Shown here in pieces: positions 12,650 to 28,292 of a stretch of DNA of 64,000 bases; position 1 is the first letter of the stretch; every line of letters starts with the position of its first letter. Position numbers and translations under genes: made by a program. The notes under the pieces were generated by a model. It ran no database searches. It saw only the letters and a program-made list of their open reading frames with translations, and had not been told where the DNA came from. Source of the stretch: Naegleria gruberi (taxonomy: Eukaryota); assembly GCA_000004985.1 (NCBI GenBank), contig GG738882.1; one strand, written 5' to 3'.

Positions 12650-15600
12650 ATGAACGGTGCCTTTACCTACTCACCAGTGGATTTGTCTTCCATTGATAGA
12701 ATTCAGTTTGGCATTTTGAATCCACATGTGGTTGAGAAAATGTCTGCATGTGAAATAATTCATGCCGAAACTGAGGAGAAAGGTCTTCCAAAGGAAGGTG
12801 GTTTGATGGATCTTCGTATGGGAACTGTAAATAGTGCACTCTCCTGTATGACATGTGGCTGTGGAGTGAGTGAATGTCCAGGACACTTTGGACATGTCAA
12901 TATTCATCCAACATTTAATATATTATTCCTAAAGACAATTGTCAAGATATTGAAATGTACATGTGTCCATTGCAGTAGATTGCTCTTCAATAGAAACACT
13001 CCAGAATTCAAGAGAATCCAACAAATCGCCAACAAACGAAAAAGATTTAACGAATTGATGAAACTGAAACCAATGGACAAGTGCATGATTGATGATTATA
13101 CAGGTTGTGGTGGTATTCAACCTAAAATATCGAAGAATCAACTGTCCATCACTCAAATATTTCCAAATTCCAATGAAATCAAGCAAGAAATCAAAGCTGA
13201 AAGTGTCTTGCAGATTTTCAAGAGAATTTCAACACAAGATTTGGAATTACTTGGTTTTGATTCAATTAATTCGAATCCAGAATGGATGATATTAACTTGT
13301 CTTCCAGTGCCACCTCCACATGTTCGTCCTTCTGTGATGCATGGCTTGAATGATAAGGCAGAAGATGATTTGACTCATAAACTTGCTGACATTATCAAGT
13401 CAAATGCCACAATTCAGAAATTGAGCAAATCTGGATCTCCACAACATTATCTTGATGACATGATCAAGATTTTGCAATATCATTGTGCTACTTATATGAA
13501 TAATGAAATTTCTGGAGTGCCAATGTCAACTACCAAGAATGGAAGAATGTTAAAAAGTTTGAGACAAAGATTGAAGGGCAAGGAAGGACGTGTCAGAGGT
13601 AATTTGATGGGTAAACGTGTAGATTTCTCAGCAAGAACTGTGATTACTCCAGATCCAACCATTGAAATAGATCAGGTTGGTGTTCCAAGAACAATTGCAA
13701 GAAATATGACAGTTCCAGAAAAAGTGACACCTTTCAACTTTGAGAGAATGAATGAATTGGTCATGAATGGTCCAGAAACCTATCCAGGTGCTAAATACGT
13801 CCTTCGTGATGATGGTACTCGAATTGATTTGAAATTTCTTTCAGATAGATCAACAGATCAAGTTCAATTACAATACGGTTACACAATTGAACGTCATTTA
13901 CAAGATGGTGATGTCGTTCTCTTCAATAGACAACCTTCCCTTCACAAAATGTCCATGATGGGTCACAGAGTTAAGGTTATGCCTTACAGCACTTTCAGAT
14001 TAAATCTCTCCGTAGTAACTCCGTACAATGCCGATTTTGACGGAGATGAAATGAATTTGCATTTGCCTCAATCTTTGCAAACCAAAACTGAATTGTTAGA
14101 GCTCATGATGGTTCCAAAGAATATCATCACTCCTCAAAGTCATCGTCCTCTCATTGCACTAGTTCAGGATACATTACTGGCAGGTTCAAAATGTACAAGA
14201 AGAGATGTCTATATTGAGAAGGATGTCATGATGAATTGTCTAATGTATTTGCAAGATTTTAATGGTCAATTGCCAGTTCCAGCAATTTTAAAGCCAAAAC
14301 CATTGTGGACTGGAAAACAATTATTTTCACTTCTATTACCCTCAATTGACTATTATGGAATTTCTTCCACACACGATGATGAAGTTGGAGATTTGAAACA
14401 TTTGGATGATCATTTACCTGAATTCGATACTGGAATAATCATTTCTAATGGAGAACTCTTAACAGGTATTTTAGATAAGAAATCTTTAGGGTCATCCCAT
14501 GGCTCCTTAATTCACATCATTGTTAATGATAAGGGAACTCAGGAAGGAAAGAAATTCCTTGGACAATGTCAACATGTACTGAACTATTGGTTGCTTCAAC
14601 ACGGATTCAGTGTTGGTATTGGAGATACAATTGCAGATGGGGAAACTGTTAAGAAAATTGAAGAAATCATTAATAATGCTGAGAGAGAAGTTAAGAAAAT
14701 TGTCAAACAAGCTCATAATGGATTGGTGACAGCTGAACCTGGAAGAACAGTTGAGCAATCATTTGAAAGATCAATCAATTCAACATTAAATGCCGCCAGA
14801 GAGGATGCTGGTATGCATGTCAAAAAGTCACTCAAAGATTCGAATAGCATCAAATCAATGGTTACTTCAGGAAGTAAGGGTTCCTACCTTAACATTTCAC
14901 AAATCATTGCCTGTGTCGGTCAACAAAACGTTGAAGGTAAGAGAGTACCTTTCGGATTCAAGAACAGAACACTCCCTCACTTTAGTACAGATGATCATGG
15001 ACCTGAGAGTCGTGGTTTTGTTGCCAACAGTTACCTCAGAGGACTTACACCTCAGGAATTCTTCTTCCACACAATGGGAGGTCGTGAAGGGTTGATTGAT
15101 ACAGCTGTCAAGACAGCTGAGACTGGTTATATTCAGAGAAGATTGGTGAAGGCCATGGAAGATGTTAAGGTCAACTATGACGGAACTGTGAGAGATGCTT
15201 CTGGAAATATTATCCAGTTCTTGTATGGTGAAGATGGAATGGATCCAATCAAGTTGGAAAGCCAATCGTTTGAAATGTTAAGTTTGAGTGATGAGATATT
15301 TGAAGAAAAGTACAAATGGTCAACCAAGTTGGAAGACCACAACATTCCAGAAAGTGATTTGAATGAAATTTCCTTAGATTTTGCCAATTATTTGATGAAA
15401 CTGAATGATGAATATAAAAAATTGCAAGAATATCGTCACTTGGTAAGAGATGAAATATTACAATCAGTAGATTCAAAGATTGTCTTTCCAGTCAACTTGT
15501 CCAGATTGATCAAGAGAGTTCAAAGAGAATATGGTAGAAAGCACTCTACTTTCAACAACTCCTCAGATTTGAATCCACTCTACGTTATCAAGAAGGTCAA

Positions 15601-17602
15601 CTCTACATGTGAAGAGCTACTCATCATTAAGGGAAAAGATAAATTATCAGAAGAAGCTCAAAGAAATGCAATTTTGCTTTTTTCAATTTTCTTGAAATTT
15701 TCATTGGCATCCAAGGTTGTTATGAATGAATTGAATTTGACTCGAGAATCTCTTGAATATTTATTGGGAGAGGTCAAGTACACATTCTTGAATGGTTTGG
15801 TTCAACCTGGTGAAATGGTTGGTTGCATTGCAGCTCAGTCAATTGGTGAACCTGCTACTCAAATGACTTTGAATACCTTTCACAATGCTGGTGTTTCGTC
15901 TAAGAATGTTACTTTGGGTGTTCCTCGATTGAAAGAACTCCTCGATGTTTCAAGAAATATCAAAACTCCTGGGTTGACCATTTATCTCAAAAATGATAAT
16001 GATTGTGAAATTGCCAAAATGGTTAAGGAAGAATTGGAATATTCTAATTTAGGTTCCATTACTAGATCTACTCAGATTATCTACGATCCAGATATTTTCA
16101 ATTCAGTTATTGAAAGTGATCAATTTTTCATTAGAGAAATGCTGGAAGAAAAAACCATTGATCCTAATACGTTTAGTCCATGGTCATTGAGATTCGTATT
16201 AGATAGAGAAATGATGAGTGAACATTTGAACATGTCTCAGATTGCAAATATTATCAAACAAGAATTTCAAAATGACATTTCATGTTTCTATTCGGATGAT
16301 AATTCAGAGGAGTTAATCTTGATAATTCGTATTCGAAACAGTGAGAAATCCAAATCTGAAACTGAGGACGATGAAGAGGATTCTTCCATGATTGTTGAAT
16401 TCCTTAAAAGACTCGAGTCCAACATGCTTAGTCAACTCTCCCTTAAAGGTCACAACAATCTCAAGAAGGTTTTCTACAGAAAAGATGAAAATATTAAATT
16501 CTTTTCCAATAAGGGAGTTGAAAAGAAGACAAGATGGTCATTAGAAACAGAAGGTTGTGATTTACTTTCAGTCATGTCTCATCCACAAGTTGATTTTAGA
16601 AATACCTTGTCAAATGATGTTATTGAAGTTGAGAAAGTGTTGGGAATTGAAGCTTGTAGAAATTTATTAATGAAAGAATTGAGAAAGGTTATTGAGTTTG
16701 ATGGTTCCTATGTCAATTATAGACATTTGGCTATTTTATGTGATGTAATGACTCAAGGAGGTGTTATTACAGCTGTCACTCGTCACGGTTTGGCCAGAAG
16801 TGATAATGGACCACTTATGAGATGTTCATTCGAGCAAACAGTTGAAGTACTTGTGGAAGCAGCTCAATTTTCAGATGTTGATACCTTGAAAGGAGTTTCA
16901 GCCAATGTTATGGTTGGTAAATTGGCTCCGATTGGAACAGGAACTTTTGATCTAGTCCTAGATGAGCAATTATTGAAGGAAACCATTCAACCAACCTTTA
17001 TGAAGGCTTCTCATTTGACAAATATTTCAATAAGCTCTCCTCATGCTGTCATGACTCCTTATCACTCAACTTTCTCTACACCTTCCTGTTCAACACCATT
17101 CTCTTCATCACCATCTAGTCCTTGGACTCCACAATATTCTCCATACACTTCTGCATTTTCACCAATTACATCCATTGCAAGTTCTCCAACAAGTCATAAT
17201 GCAAGCTATTCACCAAGTGCAAATCATAATTATTCACCAAGCAGCCCAGCCAATTATAGCCCAAGCTCACCATTAGGATCTTATTCACCAAGTAGTCCAA
17301 ATTATAGAGACTATAGTCCAACATCTCCATTAATTAATGGTCCAATGTCACCAATCTATAGTCCTTCTTCACCTGCCTACACTCCAATGAATAGTCCTGG
17401 AAGATATAGCCCTAGCTCTCCTGCATTCTCACCTCTGAGTCCAAATGTTTATTCACCATCCAGTCCTGGAAGATACAGCCCTAGCTCTCCATCAAGTCCT
17501 AATATTTATTCACCAACTAGTCCAATCTATAGTCCAACATCTCCATACTCTCCGTCAAGTCCAAGTTTTAGCCCAACTTCACCAATAGATTGGAAACAAT
17601 AG
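12650..17602 (+). CDS. RPB1: DNA-directed RNA polymerase II largest subunit (RPB1) with non-canonical CTD
   Basis: 1650-aa intronless ORF. N-terminal zinc-binding clamp (CxxC..C..H). Universal catalytic motif NADFDGDEMNLH. Trigger loop, bridge helix and other conserved blocks present. C-terminus (about 17120..17602) is a Ser/Pro/Tyr-rich CTD made of degenerate YSPSSP / YSPTSP units with variable spacers rather than tandem YSPTSPS heptads. Confidence 0.95.
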   Translation: MNGAFTYSPVDLSSIDRIQFGILNPHVVEKMSACEIIHAETEEKGLPKEGGLMDLRMGTVNSALSCMTCGCGVSECPGHFGHVNIHPTFNILFLKTIVKILKCTCVHCSRLLFNRNTPEFKRIQQIANKRKRFNELMKLKPMDKCMIDDYTGCGGIQPKISKNQLSITQIFPNSNEIKQEIKAESVLQIFKRISTQDLELLGFDSINSNPEWMILTCLPVPPPHVRPSVMHGLNDKAEDDLTHKLADIIKSNATIQKLSKSGSPQHYLDDMIKILQYHCATYMNNEISGVPMSTTKNGRMLKSLRQRLKGKEGRVRGNLMGKRVDFSARTVITPDPTIEIDQVGVPRTIARNMTVPEKVTPFNFERMNELVMNGPETYPGAKYVLRDDGTRIDLKFLSDRSTDQVQLQYGYTIERHLQDGDVVLFNRQPSLHKMSMMGHRVKVMPYSTFRLNLSVVTPYNADFDGDEMNLHLPQSLQTKTELLELMMVPKNIITPQSHRPLIALVQDTLLAGSKCTRRDVYIEKDVMMNCLMYLQDFNGQLPVPAILKPKPLWTGKQLFSLLLPSIDYYGISSTHDDEVGDLKHLDDHLPEFDTGIIISNGELLTGILDKKSLGSSHGSLIHIIVNDKGTQEGKKFLGQCQHVLNYWLLQHGFSVGIGDTIADGETVKKIEEIINNAEREVKKIVKQAHNGLVTAEPGRTVEQSFERSINSTLNAAREDAGMHVKKSLKDSNSIKSMVTSGSKGSYLNISQIIACVGQQNVEGKRVPFGFKNRTLPHFSTDDHGPESRGFVANSYLRGLTPQEFFFHTMGGREGLIDTAVKTAETGYIQRRLVKAMEDVKVNYDGTVRDASGNIIQFLYGEDGMDPIKLESQSFEMLSLSDEIFEEKYKWSTKLEDHNIPESDLNEISLDFANYLMKLNDEYKKLQEYRHLVRDEILQSVDSKIVFPVNLSRLIKRVQREYGRKHSTFNNSSDLNPLYVIKKVNSTCEELLIIKGKDKLSEEAQRNAILLFSIFLKFSLASKVVMNELNLTRESLEYLLGEVKYTFLNGLVQPGEMVGCIAAQSIGEPATQMTLNTFHNAGVSSKNVTLGVPRLKELLDVSRNIKTPGLTIYLKNDNDCEIAKMVKEELEYSNLGSITRSTQIIYDPDIFNSVIESDQFFIREMLEEKTIDPNTFSPWSLRFVLDREMMSEHLNMSQIANIIKQEFQNDISCFYSDDNSEELILIIRIRNSEKSKSETEDDEEDSSMIVEFLKRLESNMLSQLSLKGHNNLKKVFYRKDENIKFFSNKGVEKKTRWSLETEGCDLLSVMSHPQVDFRNTLSNDVIEVEKVLGIEACRNLLMKELRKVIEFDGSYVNYRHLAILCDVMTQGGVITAVTRHGLARSDNGPLMRCSFEQTVEVLVEAAQFSDVDTLKGVSANVMVGKLAPIGTGTFDLVLDEQLLKETIQPTFMKASHLTNISISSPHAVMTPYHSTFSTPSCSTPFSSSPSSPWTPQYSPYTSAFSPITSIASSPTSHNASYSPSANHNYSPSSPANYSPSSPLGSYSPSSPNYRDYSPTSPLINGPMSPIYSPSSPAYTPMNSPGRYSPSSPAFSPLSPNVYSPSSPGRYSPSSPSSPNIYSPTSPIYSPTSPYSPSSPSFSPTSPIDWKQ

Positions 17603-18413: not shown

Positions 18414-18562
18414 AGTCATCTATTCGAGAATGAAGTTTTTACAATACTATAGCTGCGAGTTGTACCATATCCTATTCTTTTGTTAATTATATTAAATTCT
18501 TAATCATAATTACTATTTAATTTAAATTTAATATCATCAACTATTTTCAGAAATTTTAAAAA

Positions 18563-19897
18563 ATGTTCAAATTAATTCCGTCATCTTCATCATTATCCAT
18601 GTTGATGAAATCCAATCAATTACGGAGTCGATTTGCCATCACTCATTCTATTAACAAGCACAAATTATTCGGAATAAACAATAGATACTTTTCAATTCTT
18701 TCATCAAAACAATTTCAACAACAACAAATAATTTCTCCCACTAACAATGAACAAGAAAAAGCACTTTTGGAACAAGAAGAATGTAATAGAGTATTTAAAT
18801 TATTGGATAATTATCCAAAGGAGACGGGTATCATTTTACATGAAATTAAAAAACAATTAACAAGATTGGAATTAGGAAAAGGAAAGAGAGAAGCAGGCCA
18901 ATTGATTGGTCTATTGAAGATTACACTTCCTTGGCTGAAGAATTTTCTCACCACTTCAATACAAATGAAGGATATGACATTCCTGCTGAAATATTTCAAT
19001 AAGGATGTGTTTATTGGAGATAGAGCCAATCCAGAAATTGTTTCGAGGCAGGTTTCACTCATGAGTCCTATTGAGCAGCCAGTTTTTAATGAAATGACAA
19101 TTAAGGAACCTGAAAGGAAGAGAATTATTTTCACTGATATTCAATCATGTGGACCATGGATTGATTTGCTGGTGAGTCATAACAAGACGATTTGCTTTGA
19201 TTGTGAGTGGAATTTTCATTCGAGGTCAACTGATGGACCTAAAGTGATTCAACTATCGAATGGATGGCTCACTCTAATCATTTACGTGGATTCAATACAA
19301 GTATCAAGTGGGAAAATTCATGATCTCTTCTGGGATAAGAAAATTACAAAGTTTGGATATGACATTAGTCCAGATGTGAAACGTTTATCAAATTGGTTCA
19401 ACTACAAGAAATTGAATCCCCTCCCAGAAATGAGCAACCTTTCGAGTATTGGAATTCTAGATGCTGATCCTCTCAAATTTGGTCTCACTAATTTACTAAA
19501 ATTTGGAGTTGTTAAGGGAAGAGAAATTGTACCACTTGTTGGAAAACAAAAAAACAATTACAATTTTCACATTTGGAATTTGGATCAATTAGATCCATAC
19601 ACTGGCAATGGAATGCACCACTTGGAATACGCAGCCAGTGACGTCATTGCAGGATTCTACTACTTCTCCAATGCTGACATTCACTCCAAAGATAATCAAG
19701 ATTTAAATTATTGGATCAATATTCTTAACCAGAATGGATTCCCAAATACTGAACCACGAGCTACCAACGAAGAATTGAAAAGAGTTGTCAATATTGCCAC
19801 CAATCAACGATTGAATTATACAGATACTTCTTTCGGTATTCCACTCTTTTTCTCTATTGATGATCATCAGAAGAATAAATCATTGAGGTATAGATGA
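18563..19897 (+). CDS. 3'-5' exonuclease domain protein (DEDDy, WRN-exo/Mut-7-like fold), possible N-terminal organellar presequence
   Basis: 444-aa ORF. ICFDCEWNF matches exo motif I (GFDxEW). KFGYDISPDVKRL matches motif II. HHLEYAASDVIAGFYYF matches motif III (YAAxDA). N-terminus MFKLIPSSSSLSMLMKSNQLRSRFAI is basic and hydroxylated, like a mitochondrial presequence. Confidence 0.6.
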   Translation: MFKLIPSSSSLSMLMKSNQLRSRFAITHSINKHKLFGINNRYFSILSSKQFQQQQIISPTNNEQEKALLEQEECNRVFKLLDNYPKETGIILHEIKKQLTRLELGKGKREAGQLIGLLKITLPWLKNFLTTSIQMKDMTFLLKYFNKDVFIGDRANPEIVSRQVSLMSPIEQPVFNEMTIKEPERKRIIFTDIQSCGPWIDLLVSHNKTICFDCEWNFHSRSTDGPKVIQLSNGWLTLIIYVDSIQVSSGKIHDLFWDKKITKFGYDISPDVKRLSNWFNYKKLNPLPEMSNLSSIGILDADPLKFGLTNLLKFGVVKGREIVPLVGKQKNNYNFHIWNLDQLDPYTGNGMHHLEYAASDVIAGFYYFSNADIHSKDNQDLNYWINILNQNGFPNTEPRATNEELKRVVNIATNQRLNYTDTSFGIPLFFSIDDHQKNKSLRYR

Positions 19898-20108
19898 TCA
19901 CTTAACAAAGAGAGAAATTCCAACGTCTGAACTCAATCCTTTCCATTCTTAATCACTCAGGTAAACCATTAGAAACTAATCCTTCCATTATTCGCCAAAC
20001 ATTGCAGGTATCACTGTGGATGAAAATCGTCTCATTTCACATCGAGAGAAGAAACAAGTGGAAAAAATAGCAAGACGAAACTCTGTGGTGTGACAATCTA
20101 ATTTCGTC

Positions 20109-23100
20109 ATGATGCAAGTTGTACAACAACAAGAATCGAATAATAATAACACAGCTTCTCAACATGAACCGATGATGGTAGTAGCATCTTCTTCATCTAC
20201 AACTTCACAACAATTAAACACCACAACAACAGCTCCAAAGAATGAAGGACAATCAACGGAAGGCATTCTGTTAAATTTTGATTCGAATAACAATAATAAC
20301 GAAACGATTGGTGAAGCATCAGAAGGCAATCATCAACATGAGAGAGTTATTTCTGATGTGGTTACTAACATCATTGACAAGATGATTAAAGATCATAACA
20401 ATGATGATAAGTCATCAGTTGAAGGTGGTGTTGTTGAAGAAAATTATAATCAACAAGAAGAATCTTCATCAACAATTGACGATGGACACAATGTGAAAAG
20501 TGTAACCTTTAATGATCAGGAAATATCTGATAAGAAAGCAGACGAAACAAAGGATGTGTCCTCTTCATATCCAACACCACCAAACATGACACCAAATGAT
20601 CATTCCATTCACTTGTCCACTCTTGACTGGGTCTCCAAACAAACCATGACAGGATCTTTTGGTGCAAGAGCTAAACACACAACAGTTTCGTTTACAAATT
20701 CTAAACAAGAACCTTGTATTTTAATTTTTGGAGGACAATCAAATATGGAAAGCTCAAAATCATCTTTATCTACAAATAGTATTGCTGAAAACTTGAATGG
20801 TATTGAAAATTCACTCTTCCTTCTCAAGAAATCTGCAGAACATGGTGATTGGCATTGTTTCTGTCCAGCTGTGAAGAATATTGCTCAATCTCCACCTAAA
20901 CTTCGTTATCATTCGGCTGTTTATTTTGAAGGAAGAATGTATGTATTTGGAGGAAAGAATAATTTGAGATATTTTGATCAATTATATGTAAGTTTTTCAG
21001 ATTGATTTAAATATTGAACTGTTTTTCATAAATTTCACAATTTTTCTAAATTTGATTGAAAAATTAGTCACTGAATTGTGAAACTTGGGAATGGAGTCAT
21101 ATTGTTTCACTCCAAAAATTCAGTACCAAACTCATCAAGGATTTCAAGAAACAATCATCAAGTAATTCACCATCAAATTCTCCACCCATTGGAAGAACTG
21201 TCAGAGAACAAATTAGCTTTGAGTCACTGATCAAGTTTCCATGTAAGAGAAGTAATCACACTGCAGTAGTTTTACCAAAATATAAGAAAATGCTTATTCA
21301 TGGAGGTAAATGTGGTGGTGAGGTTTTGGGAGATTTGTGGAGTTTTGATTTGGAAAGTTATGAATGGGATCATATTCAAATTGATATTAACAAGACATTG
21401 GTACCAAGTGAACGTCACTCTCACGCAGCAACTACACTCTACGAAAATCCAAATGTAATGCTATTCTATGGTGGTACTAATGGTAGTCATCAATTGAATG
21501 ATTTGTGGATGTTTGATATTTCATCTCGAGTTTTCACACCCATCACTCTGTGGAATAGTGTGTTAAATAATCCAGGACTCTCATTCAAAATGAGTGATAG
21601 TGGTGCTTCACATGCTGTTCAAGTTGCCACCAATTCTGTTTTTGGAAAGAAGCCATCAAGCTCTGACACCAAGAATATGGTAATTCCTCAACCAAGAACT
21701 GGACACACTTTCATTTCTCTTGGTAATGGCTACCTTATGGTGCATGGTGGCTATTCTAACAGAAGATTCTGTAAAGATTTTGTAATTATAGACTTGCAAA
21801 AGATGGAATACATTGATTGCTCTGATTTGCCAAGAAAAGAGTTGCCATGCTCTAGAAAATCTCACACCATGACAAGTATCTCTGATGAATATATTGCTCT
21901 GATTGGCGGTGTCTCTAGAAAACGAGGCAAGCTTGGTGATTTTGAATTGATTGATAAGAAGTCACTTCTCCACACATTGATGAATGATGAGCAGTGTGAT
22001 GTGGAGGATTTCAAGTCTGTTCTAAAAAAGAAATTTAATCTCGATTTGGATGATTCTACGAGATCTGCCTCCTCACACATTCAATCGTTGGATAATGTCA
22101 AGGATTTGTTAGATGCTGGATCCATCTTACTTTCTATTAGGGAGTATTCTTTGGCTAGAGAATGTTTCTCCAAAGCTTGCTCAATCAGTCCAAAGAATGT
22201 AGAAGCCAGAGAGAAGAGAGCTGTCTGTAGCTACATGATTGGTGAACATTTGGAATGTATTGAAGATTTTAGTAGTATTGAGAAATGCACCGATCAAACG
22301 TACGATCTCATCAAGGCCCATTGCTACCTTAGAATGGGACAATATCGAACTGCATCAACCATTCTTCAAACCATCAAGCAACAAGTCAACCAAGATGAAC
22401 AATCTGTTCTCCTCGATGTTATGAGACAAATTATGGAACATTACGAGTCTAGCACTGAAAACAAGAACAAGACATCTGGTGCCAGAGAAAGTAGAGCTTC
22501 TCAAGCTTACTATGCTTCACACATTGATGATTATATTTTCGAGCCAAATTTTGCACGTTATGTTGACTTGGAAGCAGAGAATAAGACAAATGACGAGTTG
22601 AATACTTCAATTGCCGAACCGTTCTCATTACTCTTTATAGGTGAAGATAAGAGTGGATTGACATCATATTTACAACAAATAAGAACCATGTTCAGACAGA
22701 GTGTCAGTTTACAGGAAGCCAAAACCTACAAGCAACATATTCAAGCATTCACTGCCTGGTTGTTCCATCAATTTATTAGTTTGAAACAATTGTTGCAAGC
22801 TTTAGATAAGGAAGAACCACTTATTGTACTTTCACCTGATTTGTCAAAGAATTGCGAAGCCCTTTTTGATATTTTGGATAATTCTGATAAGCATGCCTGC
22901 ACATTCCTCATTCCACAAGTGAGAGATTCCATTGTTGCCTTGTCCACCAATAAGGAATTTGTCAAGATCTTTACAAATTTATCCTCAATCTATGGAAAGC
23001 TTTCTAACAAGTATTATTTCACGTCACTTCCACACGACATTCACAAATTGTTCTTTACTGCCAACATTGCATAGTAAGTGCTTTTATTTTCTCATTGTTT

Positions 23101-24039
23101 TTAACATATATTATTATTGTAGCTTTTTGAATGAAGCTCCAAGAATTCTCCAAGAAAATTACTTACCAACAGAGTTTGATATTGTTGCCTATCCAGAAAA
23201 GACTCATTTCCATCCATTGAACATAATTGAAAATGAATTGGCCAGCAGGGAAATGACAGAAGAAGTTAGAAGATCCTCTATCAAGACCACATCTTCACAA
23301 AGCATTAGTGATGACATGTTCACCGAAGACCTTTCACAATACAGAAATAATTACGAAAGTTTGAATATGAGTACTGAAAAGGCGCCTCTCGAATTCATGT
23401 TCAGAAGAACACCGTATACCATCTTCTCAACAAGAACCAGTGTAGATGAGAAGAAGGTCACCTCTGCAATTAAAGAGCTCTCTATCGATGCCATTGTCAT
23501 TACTGTTTCCCTGGAAGATATTGATCAACAAAATAATTCAGTGGTCGGATCAAGTTCAATACCAACTCTAAACTTTTTAAAGAAACAAGTAATTGTCAAT
23601 GGAAAATCAAGTGCATCCATTGTAAACATTTTCAAAATTTTGGAAAAATTATTGATGGCAGAAGAGTTTGCAGACACTCAAATTTGCTTTATTTTCACAC
23701 ATCTCGATATATTTGTAAGTAGATTTAACATTCCTCAATCAAATATTAACAATTTCCATCTGAAACCCTTTTTAACAGAATCAAAAACTTTCTCAAGATC
23801 CATCCCTACTCACCAAGGTTTTCCCTAAATATTCCCCAAGCCCTAAAAAACCACCAATCAAATATTTGGAAGAAACATTTGAACTTTTCAATAGCAAACA
23901 TAAGAGAAGAAGAAGATTCCACTATTCGTTTGTTAATACATTTGATAAGGAAGATGTTAGAAAGTCCTTTAAGAATATTCACGAGGTGGTATACAGTGTT
24001 GAACTCAAGAGAAAATTGGACATGTACAAGATGTTGTAA
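20109..24039 (+). CDS. Kelch-repeat / TPR-like / G-alpha-like multidomain protein, 4 exons (20109..20987, 21068..23073, 23123..23714, 23779..24039), about 1280 aa
   Basis: Three introns inferred from in-frame joins. (1) GTAAGT at 20988 to TTAG at 21067, 80 nt; this restores a kelch blade LNCETWEWSHI that continues into ORF 21290. (2) GTAAGT beginning inside the apparent TAG stop at 23074, through TGTAG at 23122, 49 nt; splicing gives ...[27 protein letters not shown]. (3) GTAAGT at 23715 to TTAACAG at 23778, 64 nt; this joins FIFTHLDIF to NQKLSQDPSLLTKVFPKY. G-alpha homology blocks: FSLLFIGEDKSGLTSYLQQIRTMF ~ [43 protein letters not shown] ~ [33 protein letters not shown]...LTKVFPKY ~ IILFLNKKDLF...LTICYPEY; FHYSFVNTFDKEDV ~ THFTCATDTKNV. 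Kelch motifs: GARAKHTTVSF, HSAVYFEGRMYVFGG, LIHGGKCGG..LGDLWSFD, HAATTL...MLFYGG. Confidence 0.6.
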
Positions 24040-24759
24040 ATCTACTAGAATATTGTTTGGAATCTTGATTATGATGAAATGAAAATTGTATTTTTTGAAT
24101 TGTAAATATATGAATTGCGTTTATTCTTCTTCAAACTTATTGTCCTGTAACAAACATCCTAAATTGGAATTTTTCTCAACATAAAAATGGACAGTTGACT
24201 TTGGTCAAACGTCTTGTGAACTTGAGACTGAAGAATAACAAATACAATTTATTCCAATGATTCGAATATTAACCCAAACAACTTGAACATTTCCAACTTT
24301 CGAATTACAACTAATAACAACTCAAGTTTAGTTATTGTTTCATCTATTAAAACACGAATCACACCCAACAGTTCTGTCAAAATGAAACCCCACATGTGGG
24401 CGTCCTCAAACAAAAACGTACAATTTACTGATTTGCTAAAAGTGACATGTCAAATGTATAGCAAATTAATGCACCTTCTAGAAGAAATAAAAACCTTCAA
24501 AAAAACGAACAAGCATCCTTCATCATTACATTCTAGAGTGCTGTTCTCAGTGGTTCACTTTCTCACATTTGATCATCAATAGGTTCTATTCGAAACTTGA
24601 GAATTTGCGAATTGGATAGAAATAATCTTCAGTGAAATCTTCATCAATATTTATTCAAAGGTCCAAAAACAAGACTGACAAGCCCACAAACATTCATTTC
24701 TGAAAAAAGAATCTTAATTTGTGAGTCTTTCGAATAGTGAGAGACCTTCATTAAATTCA

Positions 24760-25506
24760 ATGGTTGCAACAACAGCAAGTACCACAACAACAACGAATAC
24801 TACTGGTAGACACCTTCTCACATCATCCTCTTCATCTTCCACTGATCACAATGAAATGATTAATAATTCTAATAATTATTCGAATCCTACCCACAACAAG
24901 TACTCTCCTAAACCTTTCATTGTCTCCAAGGAACGATTTAGAAGTGTGAGTTCGGCAACAATCAGTCCTCATCTCCCTCCAACATCTTTACTTTCCAATA
25001 ATTCTTCATCTTCATCAAGCCAACTTTCGAATACGACTACTCAACAAGACCCAAATCACCAGCACACCTCAACAACAACACCAACAATCCGAGATTTAAA
25101 CCTTCCCACAGTTCGTAAATCGAGAAGGAAAAAACCCATCCACTCACAAGATGGTGAAAATCCACTCTCCGAAGAAGAATATCGAAGACTCATGATGTTG
25201 AAGAGGAAATCGAGGTTTATCTACTCTTCTTCAATGACTGTAAATTCCCGCCAAAAAGAAAATTACGATAATGAAGATGATGATGAAGGAAGCTTTTATG
25301 ATGAAGAGGAGGTGAATTCTTCTTCTGGGGTGATGATGAAAAATGTTATGGGAGATAATGATTTTTCAAAGCTATTTGATAATTTGGAGGGACAAGATTT
25401 GGAGACGCAATTTAATAACTTTCTGAATGCCTTGCAAGGTAGAACAACAAATAGTAATTTAAGTCTTCTTCCTCCGATCCCGCTATTAGTAATAATAATA
25501 ATTTAA
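24760..25506 (+). CDS. Low-complexity Ser/Thr/Asn-rich hypothetical protein; could instead be a 5' exon of the downstream RGS gene
   Basis: ATG at 24760 (MVATTASTTTTTNTTGRHLL...) opens a 248-aa ORF ending PLLVIIII. Frame 0, which carries the RGS ORF, is also open from 25458. No acceptable intron joins the two frames. Confidence 0.3.
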   Translation: MVATTASTTTTTNTTGRHLLTSSSSSSTDHNEMINNSNNYSNPTHNKYSPKPFIVSKERFRSVSSATISPHLPPTSLLSNNSSSSSSQLSNTTTQQDPNHQHTSTTTPTIRDLNLPTVRKSRRKKPIHSQDGENPLSEEEYRRLMMLKRKSRFIYSSSMTVNSRQKENYDNEDDDEGSFYDEEEVNSSSGVMMKNVMGDNDFSKLFDNLEGQDLETQFNNFLNALQGRTTNSNLSLLPPIPLLVIIII

Positions 25507-25583: not shown

Positions 25584-28292
25584 ATGAAGAATAATCATCA
25601 TCCTCATCAACATAATAACAACTCATGCAGACACTCAGACATTCCTCGTGTATTGATGGAACATTTCCAAAAGGAGGAATTTGAGTGGAAGCAACAGGTA
25701 AGGCAACTCAATGCCTCCCGAGAAGCTACAACGCTACACCACCTTCCAGACAAGTACTGCCAGATGTCTACTTTCACCCTCAATAATAACGGCTCGTCTA
25801 CTGAATCGGATCTTTTCGAATCACATCATGATGGTCTCAACAACAAGAAACTAAAAAACAATAATAACACTACTTCTGTATCTTCAACATTGGAAGAGCA
25901 GAGAAGAGGTCAACAACAACAATATTCGAGTAATCATTACAATTTCAACAATAACACCTACGCTAATACTTTTGCATCATCTTCCTTTAGCGGTGCAGAA
26001 AGCAATCATTTACTGATCGGTAATAATAACGAGAATACTTTTAACTATTCGAAACCTTTCTACACAACACATTCCATGATGAATGAAAGCGAGTATCTGC
26101 AGGCAACTTCCTCTGCAACTGACTATTCCTATCCAATGTTTCACACTGATGATGAATCCTCTCTCATGTTCGATGACGATAATCATCAAGCAACAACAGA
26201 CTCATCACCTTTTGAAAAACTCATACTCGACGATGATGAATTACTTGACTATGGTGATTGTGATACATATGGAGATCTTGATGAATTTAATAATAACGAT
26301 AAGACTCCAACAATGGAAGATTACATGGACGAATCATCCTTCTTTATTGAACAAACACCTCCTCCACAGAGACCAATTTACCTCTCCTTACAGCCAGTAT
26401 CACCACTCATGTCTGCAACAAGCTCTGAATTGACCAAGCCAAGAAAATCCTCTACAAGTGGTGGAATTAATTCACCTTCATCATCAAGAACGACAAATAA
26501 TTTGAACAACAATACACTTCTGGTGGCATCAGATGAATTGGATGTTTTTACTGGGGATTCACCATCTCTGAACACAGCAACCATTTCGAATGAGAATACT
26601 TGTGTTACAGGTAGTCCAATAGATACATCGAGAAAATCCAAGGTGAGACACGGATCCGTGCCTTCAGAGGAATTCAACAAGTTTCTTCAAATTTCATCTC
26701 CACAACAACAACAACTTTTTCAGGGGGCTTGTTCTCCTGCCAGAGCTTTATCACCAACCACTTCTTCTATTGCTTGTTCTCCTGGCAAGGTATCTTCTCA
26801 TCATTCTAGGAAAATGTCTAATCATGGAATTGGTCATATGAGGAGTAATTCTGGAATTAAAAAACAACCACGAGCCAACAGTTATACAGTTTCATCAATT
26901 CTAGGAGATCCACAACTCAAGCCATTATTTTTCGACTTTCTAAATGAACATCACAATTCGGAGCTAGTTCTCTTCTTACAGGAAGAAGAAGAATTCAGAT
27001 CAGAGTGCCAGAACTGCATTGCTTCAAATATTGGAAAGTTAATGATAGAGTATGAAATCAAAATGGAAAGGATTAAACAAATTTTCGAGACATATATTAA
27101 ACCAGGATCAAATAGCGAGCTTAATTTATCAAACGAAACCAGACTCAAAGTCGAGAATAGAGTCAGTGCTTTATTGATTCCACCAGTGATATCGAGACAT
27201 AAGGGTGTTGGCGATTTACATCTTTCGAGGTGGATTTCTCCAGATACTTTCGAGGCAGCCACAACAGAGGTCAAGATTAGCTTGAAAAATCACATTCTTC
27301 CACTTTTCCTTGAGAGTTCACGATTTGAAAATTATCTTGTGCAGAAACACATTCAAGATAATACAGTTTCTAATTTGAGAGGAAAGAAAATCCAAAGAAT
27401 GCTGGGTTATTACATACCAGAGAGTGCTAAGGATTATTCATTCTATGTTAATGGAACAACTGTTGGACTTGGCAAGCAACAGCAGCAACAACAACAAATG
27501 CAACAACCACAGCATTCACAACATCATCACTATTCTACTATCAATGACCCAACAGCCAAGAAGAGTAGACCTAAGAAATCGTTGGCTGCCCTCTTTGGAA
27601 ATAACCATGCGCCATCCCAAAATCATAATAATCCAACAATGGAGCAACCAGTACTTAATGACACATCTCCAAAGAGTCCATTCAAGAATGAACAACACAA
27701 GAATCAATCATTGAGCAAATTCAAAAATTGGATTTTAGGAAAGAGACATCCTGCAGAAAGCCCAAATCCATCTTCTTCATGGTCAACTCTCTCCAAAAAG
27801 TCTCAACTCACTGTTAATAATGCTTCTAACTCTTCCCCACAACTTGTTGGAACCTCTAGTCATATTAAGATTTCACCTCGAGAAATGGAATCAGATCCAA
27901 ATAAGAAGGTTGCCAATGCATTCTTACCTCTAACAATGTCATCTGGTCAATCCAACAACACAAATACTCCAGAAATCAACTCGCTCATCAATGATGGTAT
28001 TATTTTCATCAAGGTTCATACAAAAAAGAGAGGAAACTGCAAAATTCTTGAAATTAATATCGACAAAATGTCCCTGTTATCAGACCAAGACAAGAAACTT
28101 GCCAATCAACTCAAAAATGTCTTACTAACCCACATTGATGCAGATATTAATCCTTTCGACAAGTATCCTCACCTGAGAGAATTTCTTCAAACAAAAATCT
28201 CTGTTCAATCCCAAAAGAATTGGGAAGAAATCAATGAAGATTGCATCATCAAGGTCAAAAGTCCAGCAACTAGTAACTTTTTCAAACTATAA
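25584..28292 (+). CDS. RGS (regulator of G-protein signalling) domain protein with long N/Q/S-rich low-complexity regions
   Basis: 902-aa ORF. Central RGS domain (about 26920..27350): LKPLFFDFLNEHHNSELVLFLQEEEEFRSE ... IKPGSNSELNLSNETRLKV ... FEAA ... PLFLESSRFENYL. This matches the RGS pattern F..FL..E.S.ENL.FW...E.F ... FL.S..Y..L. Flanked by poly-Q (QQQQQQQMQQPQ) and Asn-rich tracts. Confidence 0.65.
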   Translation: MKNNHHPHQHNNNSCRHSDIPRVLMEHFQKEEFEWKQQVRQLNASREATTLHHLPDKYCQMSTFTLNNNGSSTESDLFESHHDGLNNKKLKNNNNTTSVSSTLEEQRRGQQQQYSSNHYNFNNNTYANTFASSSFSGAESNHLLIGNNNENTFNYSKPFYTTHSMMNESEYLQATSSATDYSYPMFHTDDESSLMFDDDNHQATTDSSPFEKLILDDDELLDYGDCDTYGDLDEFNNNDKTPTMEDYMDESSFFIEQTPPPQRPIYLSLQPVSPLMSATSSELTKPRKSSTSGGINSPSSSRTTNNLNNNTLLVASDELDVFTGDSPSLNTATISNENTCVTGSPIDTSRKSKVRHGSVPSEEFNKFLQISSPQQQQLFQGACSPARALSPTTSSIACSPGKVSSHHSRKMSNHGIGHMRSNSGIKKQPRANSYTVSSILGDPQLKPLFFDFLNEHHNSELVLFLQEEEEFRSECQNCIASNIGKLMIEYEIKMERIKQIFETYIKPGSNSELNLSNETRLKVENRVSALLIPPVISRHKGVGDLHLSRWISPDTFEAATTEVKISLKNHILPLFLESSRFENYLVQKHIQDNTVSNLRGKKIQRMLGYYIPESAKDYSFYVNGTTVGLGKQQQQQQQMQQPQHSQHHHYSTINDPTAKKSRPKKSLAALFGNNHAPSQNHNNPTMEQPVLNDTSPKSPFKNEQHKNQSLSKFKNWILGKRHPAESPNPSSSWSTLSKKSQLTVNNASNSSPQLVGTSSHIKISPREMESDPNKKVANAFLPLTMSSGQSNNTNTPEINSLINDGIIFIKVHTKKRGNCKILEINIDKMSLLSDQDKKLANQLKNVLLTHIDADINPFDKYPHLREFLQTKISVQSQKNWEEINEDCIIKVKSPATSNFFKL

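What the first reader, a model, noticed from the sequence alone, without database searches (positions are those of the whole stretch)
20109..24039. Unusual gene fusion: Kelch beta-propeller + TPR-like region + divergent (likely inactive) G-alpha domain, across 4 exons
Three short introns are supported by exact in-frame joins. One GTAAGT donor overlaps the apparent stop codon of ORF 21290..23074. The C-terminal 470 aa align block by block to heterotrimeric G-alpha (P-loop region, YFLNE...RI.Q.NY.PT..D helical/switch-I region, NKxD block, LT..FP.Y, TCAxDT block), but the key nucleotide-binding residues are substituted: GxGESGKST to GEDKSGLTS, DVGGQ lost, NKKD to THLD, TCAT to SFVN. A G-alpha fold that likely cannot bind or hydrolyse GTP, fused downstream of Kelch repeats, is not a described domain architecture to my knowledge. 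It could be a scaffold that still engages G-beta-gamma, RGS proteins or receptors.
Basis: partly seen in the sequence, partly recalled or inferred. Interest (0 to 1): 0.75.

Follow-up and report, generated by a model that had tools for sequence, protein, structure and literature searches.

The report
Kelch–TPR protein with dead Gα domain
This is a real, conserved gene of Naegleria-type amoebae that joins a Kelch propeller and a TPR module to a G-protein alpha domain that has lost its GTP-binding residues. It probably works as a fixed scaffold rather than a switch, much like the "extra-large" G proteins of plants.

Summary
Exons 20109-20987, 21068-23073, 23123-23714 and 23779-24039 join in frame through three GTAAGT...AG introns into a 1245-aa protein. 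It has a low-complexity N-terminus, a Kelch propeller (I count six blades), about three TPRs, and a full-length G-alpha domain (PF00503 E 3.9e-30; profile-profile E 1.4e-40).

The fusion is not a gene-model artefact. Kelch, TPR and the first half of G-alpha share one ORF in the window. The Willaertia orthologue is one continuous ORF, and the intron positions are conserved.

Relatives with the same architecture are deposited from Naegleria lovaniensis, Willaertia magna and Acrasis kona, plus unnamed contigs. All are unannotated or mis-annotated.

The GTPase motifs are lost in the Naegleria, Willaertia and Acrasis relatives: P-loop Lys to Leu/Met/Cys, Arg finger to Pro, DVGGQ lost, NKxD to THxD/TKFD, TCAT lost. 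The domain is nonetheless under purifying selection (7 synonymous versus 1 non-synonymous difference between two strains).

The best reading is a nucleotide-independent pseudo-G-alpha scaffold, analogous to plant XLGs. Canonical G-beta and RGS contact residues are not kept, but the receptor-type C-terminal tail is.

Deviant G-alphas in Naegleria are already noted in the literature. I rate this a new variant of a known kind, of moderate interest.

The parts
20109..24039 (+). Whole coding region of the Kelch-TPR-pseudo-G-alpha gene (1245 codons plus stop, 4 exons)
   Evidence: in-frame assembly; domains and orthologues.
20109..20987 (+). Exon 1 (aa 1-293)
   Evidence: The join DQLY|SLNCETWEW matches the orthologues.
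20988..21067 (+). Intron 1 (80 nt, phase 0, GTAAGT...TAG)
   Evidence: The same position after QLY/QLF carries an intron in Naegleria sp. L003 and in Willaertia L001.
21068..23073 (+). Exon 2 (aa 294-961 plus 2 nt). It carries Kelch blades, the TPRs and the N-terminal half of the G-alpha-like domain in one ORF.
23074..23122 (+). Intron 2 (49 nt, phase 2). Its GTAAGT donor creates the apparent TAG stop of ORF 21290..23074.
   Evidence: L003 has the same TA|GTAAGT. This is the only intron that differs between the two strains, by a 3-nt indel and 1 substitution. The intron is absent in Willaertia.
23123..23714 (+). Exon 3 (aa 962-1159)
   Evidence: The join [14 protein letters not shown] matches the orthologues.
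23715..23778 (+). Intron 3 (64 nt, phase 0, GTAAGT...CAG)
   Evidence: Conserved in L003, absent in Willaertia.
23779..24039 (+). Exon 4 (aa 1160-1245 plus TAA)
20109..20603 (+). Species-specific low-complexity N-terminal extension (aa 1-165)
   Evidence: No counterpart in the orthologues. Between strains it has no indels and 0.8% substitutions, against 18 gap columns in the 211-nt upstream spacer, so it behaves as coding sequence.
20616..21964 (+). Kelch beta-propeller (aa ~170-592, spanning intron 1). Six blades by my reading of the GG/W repeat pattern.
   Evidence: Pfam PF24681 3.5e-46, PF13418, PF24981 and others. PDB relatives include the dynein heavy-chain Kelch domain, LZTR1, KLHDC2/3/10 and FBXO42. 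The blade count is my inference from the alignment.
21905..21940 (+). Conserved basic motif GGxSRKRG[KR][LM]xD in the last Kelch blade
   Evidence: Kept in 6 of 7 family members. Its function is unknown.
22094..22459 (+). About three TPR repeats plus a capping helix (aa ~636-757)
   Evidence: Single-sequence Pfam hits are sub-threshold. The family profile against PDB gives CTPR3 1.3e-11, TOM70 3.6e-10, DNAJC3 8e-9 and CDC27 1.5e-7. Weak TPR hits fall at the same place in all six family members scanned (window; five relatives).
22508..22546 (+). Conserved linker motif YYASHIDDYIFEP ([IV]D[DEK]xx[YF]E[PA]) between the TPRs and the G-alpha-like domain
   Evidence: Conserved across the family. It does not align to the canonical alpha-N helix and has low pLDDT in the isolated-domain model.
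22595..24036 (+). G-alpha-like pseudo-GTPase domain (aa 803-1245, spanning introns 2 and 3)
   Evidence: PF00503 E 3.9e-30. PDB G-alpha-i/q hits at 1.6e-9. hhalign probability 100%, E 1.4e-40. The model of the Willaertia orthologue matches G-alpha structures at TM 0.73-0.81.
22640..22666 (+). Degenerate P-loop GEDKSGLTS (canonical GAGESGKST; Lys46 to Leu)
   Evidence: Orthologues read GQHECGMTS, GEKKSGLTT, GGPSSGCTT and GADRHNGCTT.
22709..23162 (+). All-helical domain of G-alpha (aa ~841-975), with an extra ~20-25 aa (22982-23056)
   Evidence: hhalign alignment. Helices 76-218 of the orthologue model have pLDDT 74-94.
23178..23216 (+). Remodelled switch I, DIVAYPEKTHFHP (Arg178 to Pro, Gly183 to Phe, Thr181 kept)
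23217..23387 (+). Variable low-complexity insert after switch I (57 aa here, about 230 aa in N. lovaniensis)
   Evidence: It is disordered in the model. The only non-synonymous strain difference in this domain (T1018I) lies here.
23424..23441 (+). G3/switch II remnant FSTRTS (canonical FDVGGQ)
23523..23603 (+). Insertion of about 20 aa at the switch III position
   Evidence: hhalign gap. Short strands are predicted there in the model.
23697..23708 (+). G4 remnant THLD (canonical NKKD; only the Asp is kept)
   Evidence: The family reads THHD, THLD, THCD, TKFD and SKND.
23926..23940 (+). G5 remnant SFVNT (canonical TCATD)
23998..24036 (+). Conserved C-terminal alpha-5 tail VELKRKLDMYKML. The Leu at -7 and the hydrophobic last two residues match receptor-binding G-alpha tails.
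   Evidence: The interpretation as a docking site is inference.

Best explanation
The locus is one intact gene under selection. It belongs to a conserved heterolobosean family whose product has three modules: a Kelch beta-propeller (six blades by my count), about three TPRs, and a complete G-alpha fold (Ras-like plus helical domain). The G-alpha domain has lost the residues that bind the phosphates, the Mg2+ and the guanine, and the residues that catalyse hydrolysis.

The most likely mechanism is that the G-alpha-like domain no longer cycles between GDP and GTP states. It would act as a permanently 'one-state' protein-binding module (a pseudo-GTPase), with the Kelch propeller and the TPRs as two further docking surfaces. 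The protein would then be a nucleotide-independent scaffold or decoy in the very large Naegleria G-protein/7TM signalling network. Functionally this parallels plant extra-large G proteins, but it arose independently and has a different N-terminal architecture.

Shown here: the gene structure, the domain homology, the motif losses and their conservation, and purifying selection.
Inferred: absence of nucleotide binding, the scaffold role, and use of the conserved C-terminal alpha-5 tail as a docking element for a receptor-like partner.
For: - Gene model. In-frame joins with canonical splice sites. Intron 1 is conserved in Naegleria sp. L003 and in Willaertia. Introns 2 and 3 are conserved in L003 and absent in Willaertia, where aa 126-1175 form one ORF. 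A metagenomic relative is a single 1104-codon ORF.
- Domains. Pfam Kelch and G-alpha. TPR by family profile. hhalign to canonical G-alpha: probability 100%, E 1.4e-40, 323 columns including the helical domain and alpha-5. AF2 model of the Willaertia domain: pLDDT 78, pTM 0.76, ordered parts mostly above 85. Foldseek hits are all G-alpha, with TM 0.73-0.81 normalised by target.
- Motif loss shared by orthologues. Lys46 becomes L/M/L/L/C/C. Arg178 becomes Pro in the three Naegleria/Willaertia orthologues and in Acrasis kona. DVGGQ is lost. NKxD becomes THxD or TKFD. TCAT is lost.
- Selection. Against a same-species metagenome contig, the G-alpha-like domain shows 7 synonymous and 1 non-synonymous change (pN/pS 0.04, binomial p 8.6e-5). 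The whole gene gives 0.24, with no exon indels. The degenerate P-loop/alpha-1 segment is the most conserved block of the G-alpha-like domain: 73% and 67% identity to N. lovaniensis and Willaertia.
- Precedent. Arabidopsis XLG2 lacks the same classes of residue and binds GTP-gamma-S 100-1000 times more weakly, yet still binds its partners independently of nucleotide.
Against: - There are no expression or protein data for this gene.
- No biochemical test of nucleotide binding exists. One distant family member (P0081) keeps an intact GxxxxGKT P-loop and the K and D of G4 (SKND), so nucleotide binding may persist in part of the family.
- Residues that canonical G-alpha uses to contact G-beta (W211, I212, F215) and RGS proteins (T182, G183, Q204, S206) are not conserved. 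A direct role inside classical heterotrimeric signalling is therefore not supported by sequence.
- The good AF2 model used an alignment containing canonical G-alphas, which leans the model toward that fold. The shallow-alignment model was poor.
- Partners of the Kelch and TPR modules are unknown.
Confidence: 0.6

Rival explanations
1. Single-chain 'G-beta-mimic plus G-alpha'. The Kelch propeller packs intramolecularly onto the pseudo-G-alpha domain, as a WD40 G-beta packs on G-alpha and as the yeast kelch proteins Gpb1/Gpb2 bind Gpa2. The TPRs would act as the tether. Partner or receptor binding, rather than GTP, would open and close the assembly.
For: The covalent linkage of a Kelch propeller and a G-alpha fold is conserved across at least four heterolobosean lineages. 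Yeast kelch proteins Gpb1/2 are reported to bind the G-alpha Gpa2. One of the closest solved Kelch relatives is LZTR1, whose Kelch domain binds Ras-family GTPases according to my own knowledge. The conserved linker motif and the conserved basic motif in the last blade could be intramolecular contacts.
Against: The switch II residues that bind G-beta are not kept. The propeller has six Kelch blades by my count, not seven WD40 blades. The G-beta-mimic role of Gpb1/2 is itself debated (own knowledge).
Confidence: 0.13
2. The G-alpha fold has been co-opted for a job outside G-protein signalling, for example cytoskeletal or trafficking scaffolding through the Kelch and TPR modules. It would serve only as a structural or dimerisation domain.
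For: Canonical G-beta and RGS contact residues and all three switch regions are remodelled. Kelch relatives include dynein heavy-chain and CRL substrate-receptor propellers. No membrane-anchoring N-terminus is present.
Against: The extreme C-terminal alpha-5 tail keeps the spacing and hydrophobic end typical of receptor-coupling G-alpha tails across the family. Nothing in the sequence points to a specific alternative pathway.
Confidence: 0.2
3. It is still an active but non-canonical nucleotide-binding switch.
For: The two P-loop glycines, the Ser/Thr after the lost Lys, Thr181 and the G4 Asp are retained. The P-loop region is strongly conserved. A distant relative keeps GxxxxGKT.
Against: Five elements are lost together: the P-loop Lys, DxxGQ, the Arg finger, the N/K of NKxD, and TCAT. 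This pattern holds in the Naegleria, Willaertia and Acrasis relatives. XLG2, with comparable losses, binds GTP-gamma-S 100-1000 times more weakly.
Confidence: 0.05
4. Artefact: two neighbouring genes (Kelch-TPR and a decaying G-alpha pseudogene) wrongly merged by the proposed splicing.
For: An in-frame TAG ends the long ORF at 23074, and the gene callers used on the public contigs split the locus into 3 or 4 ORFs.
Against: Kelch, the TPRs and the G-alpha P-loop plus helical domain lie in one ORF within exon 2. The Willaertia and metagenomic relatives encode the whole protein without these introns. pN/pS is 0.04 in the G-alpha-like part. The TAG follows simply from a split Tyr codon TA|GT.
Confidence: 0.02

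Closest known systems
Plant extra-large G proteins (XLG1-3)
   Same: Both are large proteins whose C-terminal half is a G-alpha-like domain lacking the residues for nucleotide binding and hydrolysis. XLG2 is proposed to act independently of nucleotide, as a decoy or scaffold (review).
   Different: The XLG N-terminus is an NLS plus a Cys-rich region, not Kelch plus TPR. XLGs are described as unique to plants, so any similarity here is convergent. XLG2 binds G-beta-gamma and an RGS domain, whereas here the canonical contact residues for both are not conserved.
Canonical heterotrimeric G-alpha subunits (PF00503), including the ~44 G-alphas reported for Naegleria gruberi and the 13 for N. fowleri
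   Same: The same two-domain fold, aligned end to end. The C-terminal tail pattern is similar. Deviant catalytic motifs in some Naegleria G-alphas are already noted.
   Different: All five G motifs and the Arg/Gln catalytic pair are lost. There is no N-terminal lipidated helix. There are three insertions (helical domain, after switch I, at switch III). The domain sits at the C-terminus of an ~800-aa Kelch-TPR extension.
Yeast kelch 'G-beta-mimic' proteins Gpb1/Gpb2 (Krh1/2) with the G-alpha Gpa2
   Same: A Kelch propeller is functionally coupled to a G-alpha.
   Different: In yeast these are separate polypeptides and the G-alpha is active. No orthology was tested here, and contact between the Kelch and G-alpha-like domains is only conjectured.
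PseudoGTPases that do not bind nucleotide (class i)
   Same: The GTPase fold is kept and the G motifs are lost, yet the sequence is under constraint, implying a protein-interaction role. The concept is as in the paper listed (PMC12490416).
   Different: Assignment to the class rests on sequence only. Nucleotide binding has not been measured.
TPR-containing G-alpha regulators (LGN/AGS3/Pins: TPR + GoLoco)
   Same: TPR repeats occur in the same signalling context as a G-alpha domain (own knowledge). LGN GoLoco/G-alpha-i complexes are among the structural hits.
   Different: No GoLoco motif was found or looked for in detail. Here the TPRs are fused to the G-alpha-like domain itself.

Membership tests
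G-alpha family (Pfam PF00503), homology/fold level | Significant full-length match to the family profile | tested here: met
   105.6 bits against a gathering score of 48.8, E 3.9e-30, profile positions 20-332 of 333. hhalign probability 100%, E 1.4e-40.
G-alpha family (Pfam PF00503), homology/fold level | All-helical domain inserted into the Ras-like domain between alpha-1 and switch I | tested here: met
   The region aligns in hhalign. The orthologue model has confident helices there and superposes on whole G-alpha structures at TM 0.73-0.81.
Functional G-alpha GTPase switch | G1 P-loop GxxxxGK[ST] | tested here: not met
   GEDKSGLTS: Lys46 is Leu. Orthologues have Met, Leu or Cys.
Functional G-alpha GTPase switch | Switch I arginine finger and Mg-binding Thr (RxxT) | tested here: not met
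   Arg178 is Pro in the window, N. lovaniensis, Willaertia and Acrasis kona. Thr181 is kept in the window but is Tyr in N. lovaniensis.
Functional G-alpha GTPase switch | G3 DxxGQ with the catalytic Gln | tested here: not met
   STRTS in place of DVGGQ.
Functional G-alpha GTPase switch | G4 NKxD and G5 TCA[TS] guanine-recognition motifs | tested here: not met
   THLD (only the Asp kept) and SFVN.
Functional G-alpha GTPase switch | N-terminal lipid-modified helix that binds G-beta-gamma | tested here: not met
   The domain is internal. The family profile does not align to alpha-N, and no predicted N-terminus begins MG.
Functional G-alpha GTPase switch | Measured GTP binding and hydrolysis | not testable with these tools
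   Needs recombinant protein.
Plant XLG (extra-large G protein) family | C-terminal G-alpha-like domain with degenerate nucleotide-binding residues | tested here: met
   XLG description.
Plant XLG (extra-large G protein) family | N-terminal NLS plus cysteine-rich region | tested here: not met
   The N-terminal part is low-complexity sequence, then Kelch, then TPR.
Plant XLG (extra-large G protein) family | Common descent with the plant XLG clade | tested here: inconclusive
   In the exhaustive profile search only fused heterolobosean-type proteins score below 1e-13. All other G-alphas score 1e-11 or worse, with no long plant-like protein near the top. No phylogeny was made.
Plant XLG (extra-large G protein) family | Nucleotide-independent binding of G-beta-gamma and RGS | not testable with these tools
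   Sequence hints are negative: W211/I212/F215, T182/G183 and Q204 are not kept.
PseudoGTPase (non-nucleotide-binding class) | GTPase fold retained, G motifs lost, losses shared by orthologues, sequence under purifying selection | tested here: met
PseudoGTPase (non-nucleotide-binding class) | Demonstrated absence of nucleotide binding | not testable with these tools
   Biochemistry is required.
Kelch beta-propeller | Multiple Kelch repeats above Pfam thresholds | tested here: met
   PF24681 157.7 bits (cut-off 50), PF13418 99.5 bits, PF24981 95 bits, PF01344 66 bits. PDB Kelch relatives. The six blades were counted by eye.
TPR repeat domain | Significant match to TPR profiles or structures | tested here: met
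   The single sequence is below Pfam cut-offs. The family profile hits designed and natural TPR proteins at 1e-11 to 1e-7.
Kelch 'G-beta-mimic' / G-alpha pair (yeast Gpb1/2-Gpa2 type) | Direct binding of the Kelch propeller to the G-alpha domain | not testable with these tools
   Only co-occurrence in one polypeptide is shown.

The most novel reading that the evidence does not exclude
The fusion is a 'Rosetta stone' for an ancient partnership between Kelch propellers and G-alpha. On this reading, the propeller would dock on the pseudo-G-alpha as a built-in G-beta substitute in Heterolobosea, giving a single-chain, nucleotide-free G-protein-like module. Binding of a 7TM receptor to the conserved alpha-5 tail, or of a ligand to the TPR/Kelch surfaces, would gate it instead of GTP. 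That would extend the contested yeast Gpb1/2-Gpa2 'kelch G-beta mimic' idea beyond fungi and provide a natural system in which to test it.
Probability: 0.12. Interest if true: 0.8.

Novelty: new variant of a known kind. Interest (0 to 1): 0.45.

Why it matters
Plant XLGs are described as a uniquely plant invention: G-alpha-like proteins that signal without a nucleotide cycle. A conserved heterolobosean family with the same logic but a different N-terminal architecture (Kelch + TPR) would show that 'dead' G-alpha scaffolds evolved more than once. It would also offer a second, independent system for asking what a G-alpha fold does once it stops being a switch.

Family members differ in how much of the GTPase machinery they have lost. 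One distant member keeps an intact P-loop, Acrasis keeps TKFD, and Naegleria has lost all five motifs. This suggests a stepwise path from an active fused G-alpha to a pseudo-GTPase.

In practice, the gene is split or un-named in automatic annotations, and the Acrasis copy is mis-named 'actin-fragmin kinase'. The correct four-exon model and domain assignment therefore improve annotation of Naegleria genomes, including relatives of the pathogen N. fowleri, whose G-protein network is being explored as a drug target.

Tried and rejected
- The spliced window protein could not be given to the representative search or to the structure predictor. I worked around this with exon-wise translations and with the Willaertia orthologue.
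- The first AF2 run used a 10-sequence alignment. It gave pLDDT 54 and pTM 0.37, and its fold search gave TM of only 0.2-0.35. I discarded it in favour of the 59-sequence run.
- The second and third homologous-protein searches returned only 3 and 4 proteins. They missed known orthologues, so absence from these lists says nothing about annotation in N. gruberi or N. fowleri.
With the 3-orthologue alignment it found no relatives.
- Anantharaman et al. 2011, the paper most likely to list this architecture, is not held. Searches combining Naegleria or Heterolobosea with Kelch and G-alpha terms listed no paper describing the fusion.
- The supplement of the Bosch et al. 2022 N. fowleri paper gives no lengths or architectures for its 13 G-alphas.
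- I considered a functional link to the RGS-domain gene 1.5 kb downstream. It is not syntenic in the other Naegleria species and RGS genes are very numerous in Naegleria, so I treat the adjacency as chance.
- I considered, from memory only, that the TPRs might be an EEVD-type 'carboxylate clamp' binding the protein's own C-terminus. By eye most clamp residues are not kept, so I dropped the idea.
- The pseudogene and merged-gene readings were rejected (see the rival explanations).

Full report
**What is in the sequence**

The window is AT-rich (33.8% GC) eukaryotic DNA. Joining 20109-20987, 21068-23073, 23123-23714 and 23779-24039 gives 3738 nt, a multiple of three, and a 1245-aa protein with a single terminal stop. 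The three introns are 80, 49 and 64 nt, and each starts GTAAGT and ends AG. The stop that closes ORF 21290..23074 comes from a split codon. A Tyr codon is divided TA|C by a phase-2 intron, and the G of the GT donor completes TAG.

**Is the gene model right?**

Three independent lines say yes.
- The amino-acid sequence runs across all three joins without indels when aligned to the N. lovaniensis (P0001, 1278 aa) and Willaertia magna (P0002, 1175 aa) proteins.
- A second Naegleria species (contigs L003/L004) has introns at the same three positions, including the same TA|GTAAGT donor.
- In the Willaertia genome only intron 1 exists, at the same position after QLY. Residues 126-1175 are one uninterrupted ORF (tblastn, single 100% HSP), so the sequence spanning introns 2 and 3 here is contiguous there. 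A more distant metagenomic relative (P0160) is a single 1104-codon ORF.

Within the window itself, exon 2 alone carries Kelch repeats, the TPR region and the G-alpha P-loop plus helical domain in one ORF. A 'two merged genes' artefact is therefore excluded.

**Domains**

- Pfam gives Kelch models well above threshold (PF24681 E 3.5e-46, among others).
- Pfam gives G-alpha PF00503 at E 3.9e-30, 105.6 bits against a cut-off of 48.8, over residues 803-1229 and profile positions 20-332 of 333.
- The G-alpha-like region alone finds G-alpha-i/q chains in the PDB at about 1e-9.
- A profile of seven family members against a profile of 30 canonical G-alphas gives hhalign probability 100%, E 1.4e-40 and 323 aligned columns. 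The match runs from just before the P-loop to the last residue and includes the helical domain.
- TPR hits are sub-threshold for the single sequence. A family profile of residues 588-792 hits designed and natural TPR proteins at 1e-11 to 1e-7: CTPR3, TOM70, DNAJC3, CDC27, FKBP51/52 and CHIP. About three TPRs are therefore real.
- The Kelch part resembles generic propellers: the dynein heavy-chain Kelch domain, LZTR1, KLHDC2/3/10 and FBXO42. I count six blades from the repeat pattern; this count is an inference.

The spliced window protein could not be submitted for structure prediction, so I modelled the Willaertia orthologue's domain. A 10-sequence alignment gave a poor model (pLDDT 54). A 59-sequence alignment gave pLDDT 78.3 and pTM 0.76, with the ordered parts mostly above 85. 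Low confidence was confined to the linker and the low-complexity insert. Foldseek against the PDB returned only G-alpha structures, with TM 0.73-0.81 normalised by target. One caveat applies: that alignment contained canonical G-alphas.

**State of the GTPase machinery**

Mapped on human G-alpha-i1 (the sequence is from memory; segments were checked against the PDB alignments), the substitutions are:

| Element | Canonical | Window | Relatives |
|---|---|---|---|
| P-loop | GAGESGKST | GEDKSGLTS (Lys46 to Leu) | Met in N. lovaniensis; Leu in Willaertia and P0160; Cys in the two Acrasis-type proteins |
| Switch I arginine finger | Arg178 | Pro | Pro in N. lovaniensis, Willaertia and Acrasis kona |
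| Switch I glycine | Gly183 | Phe | |
| G3 | DVGGQ | STRTS | |
| G4 | NKKD | THLD | THHD, THLD, THCD, TKFD |
| G5 | TCAT | SFVN | |

There are three insertions: about 20-25 aa in the helical domain, a variable low-complexity insert after switch I (57 aa here, about 230 aa in N. lovaniensis), and about 20 aa at switch III. One distant, partly assembled relative (P0081/L006, 26% GC) keeps an intact GSPGTGKTT P-loop and SKND but has lost DxxG. The fusion therefore probably predates the full loss of the motifs.

**Is it decaying?**

No. A metagenome contig from the same species (L002) is about 99.4% identical in the exons. It differs from the window by 12 synonymous and 11 non-synonymous substitutions and no exon indels, giving pN/pS 0.24. 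In the G-alpha-like domain the counts are 7 synonymous and 1 non-synonymous (pN/pS 0.04, binomial p 8.6e-5), and the single replacement lies in the disordered insert. The flanking spacers carry many indels, while the N-terminal low-complexity region carries none. The degenerate P-loop/alpha-1 block is the most conserved block of the G-alpha-like domain, at 73% and 67% identity to N. lovaniensis and Willaertia.

**Distribution**

An exhaustive profile search of 1.84 billion representatives found 292 hits at E of 1e-3 or better, but only 11 at 1e-10 or better. The strong hits are the Naegleria and Willaertia proteins and their fragments, plus four further proteins:
- Acrasis kona KAL0489286.1 (1145 aa, named 'actin-fragmin kinase');
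- an Acrasis-like protein from assembly GCA_016850925.1 (organism not shown by the tool);
- the metagenomic P0016/P0160;
- at lower score, P0081.

All of these have Kelch + weak TPR + G-alpha. Canonical G-alphas score only 1e-11 or worse. This is a distinct family seen so far in Heterolobosea and in unidentified contigs.

**How it probably works**

The phosphate-binding Lys, the Mg/gamma-phosphate DxxG, both catalytic residues and most guanine-recognition residues are gone, and all three switch regions are remodelled. The domain very probably neither binds nor hydrolyses GTP. This is an inference, supported by the XLG2 precedent, where comparable losses reduce GTP-gamma-S affinity 100-1000-fold. 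Strong constraint then implies a binding role.

Residues that canonical G-alpha uses to hold G-beta (W211, I212, F215; there is also no alpha-N helix) and RGS proteins (T182, G183, Q204, S206) are not kept. By contrast, the extreme C-terminus (…VELKRKLDMYKML) is conserved across the family. It keeps the Leu at -7 and a hydrophobic dipeptide end, as in receptor-coupling alpha-5 tails. A receptor-like or chaperone-like partner for that tail is therefore plausible, again by inference.

I conclude that the protein is a nucleotide-independent, three-module scaffold or decoy. A minority alternative is intramolecular docking of the Kelch propeller on the pseudo-G-alpha, as a built-in G-beta mimic like yeast Gpb1/2-Gpa2. 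I could not test this.

**Comparison with what is known, and novelty**

The nearest functional analogues are plant XLGs, which are described as unique to plants. The N-terminal architecture differs, and no specific relationship to XLGs was seen. A review citing Anantharaman et al. 2011 states that N. gruberi has about 44 G-alphas and that deviant catalytic motifs occur in some Naegleria G-alphas. Inactive G-alphas in this genus are therefore not new in principle. I could not read the 2011 paper, and no searchable paper describes the Kelch-TPR fusion. The proteins are deposited but uncharacterised. I rate this a new variant of a known kind, with interest about 0.45.

**Surroundings**

- Upstream: an Rpb1 ORF (12650-17602) and a 444-aa ORF with no Pfam hit (18563-19897).
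- Downstream: a 902-aa ORF with an RGS domain (25584-28292) and an Argonaute gene (28598-31294).

The RGS adjacency is not conserved in the other Naegleria species, and RGS genes are very abundant in Naegleria.

Noticed in passing
window 25584-28292 (+): A 902-aa ORF with an RGS domain (PF00615, E 6e-14, residues 436-584) lies about 1.5 kb downstream of the pseudo-G-alpha gene. The 261-aa ORF at 24721-25506 may belong to the same gene. In the other Naegleria species (L003) the downstream neighbours are different genes, so the adjacency is probably chance.
   Followed up: partly
window 12650-17602 (+) and 28598-31294 (+): A large-subunit RNA polymerase II (Rpb1) ORF of 1650 aa with all seven Rpb1 domains, and an Argonaute gene (ArgoN/PAZ/Piwi, 898 aa).
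   Followed up: no
window 18563-19897 (+): A 444-aa ORF directly upstream has no Pfam hit at E 1e-3 or better. It is conserved at 99% and in the same order on metagenome contig L002.
   Followed up: no
L002 (ENA ERZ929261, run ERR1078381, PRJEB11402) against window 18495-24248: A 5.7-kb metagenome contig is about 99.4% identical in the exons of this gene, but diverges sharply (about 22% substitutions plus many gaps) in the 3' flank after 24040. It is probably a second strain of the same species.
   Followed up: partly
P0015 = Acrasis kona KAL0489286.1: The Acrasis orthologue is annotated 'actin-fragmin kinase', apparently from Kelch similarity only. Pfam finds Kelch + TPR + G-alpha and no kinase domain.
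   Followed up: partly
L006 (Logan ERR14790941, 26% GC), gene 218-2398 plus downstream exons: A distant relative with Kelch + TPR + G-alpha keeps an intact P-loop (GSPGTGKTT) and SKND for G4, but lacks DxxG. It may be an intermediate on the way to the pseudo-GTPase. The organism is unknown.
   Followed up: partly
Representative-search hits P0021, P0022, P0023 and P0066: Other stand-alone G-alphas of normal length have degenerate P-loops (GRHRSGRST, GLKGAGVST, GCEGSGAST). P0066 is a tandem double G-alpha of 721 aa. P-loop decay in G-alphas appears to be recurrent. Their sources were not identified.
   Followed up: no
window 21905-21940 and 22508-22546: Two short motifs are conserved across the family and have no known function: GGxSRKRG[KR][LM]xD in the last Kelch blade, and [IV]D[DEK]xx[YF]E[PA] in the linker before the G-alpha-like domain.
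   Followed up: no
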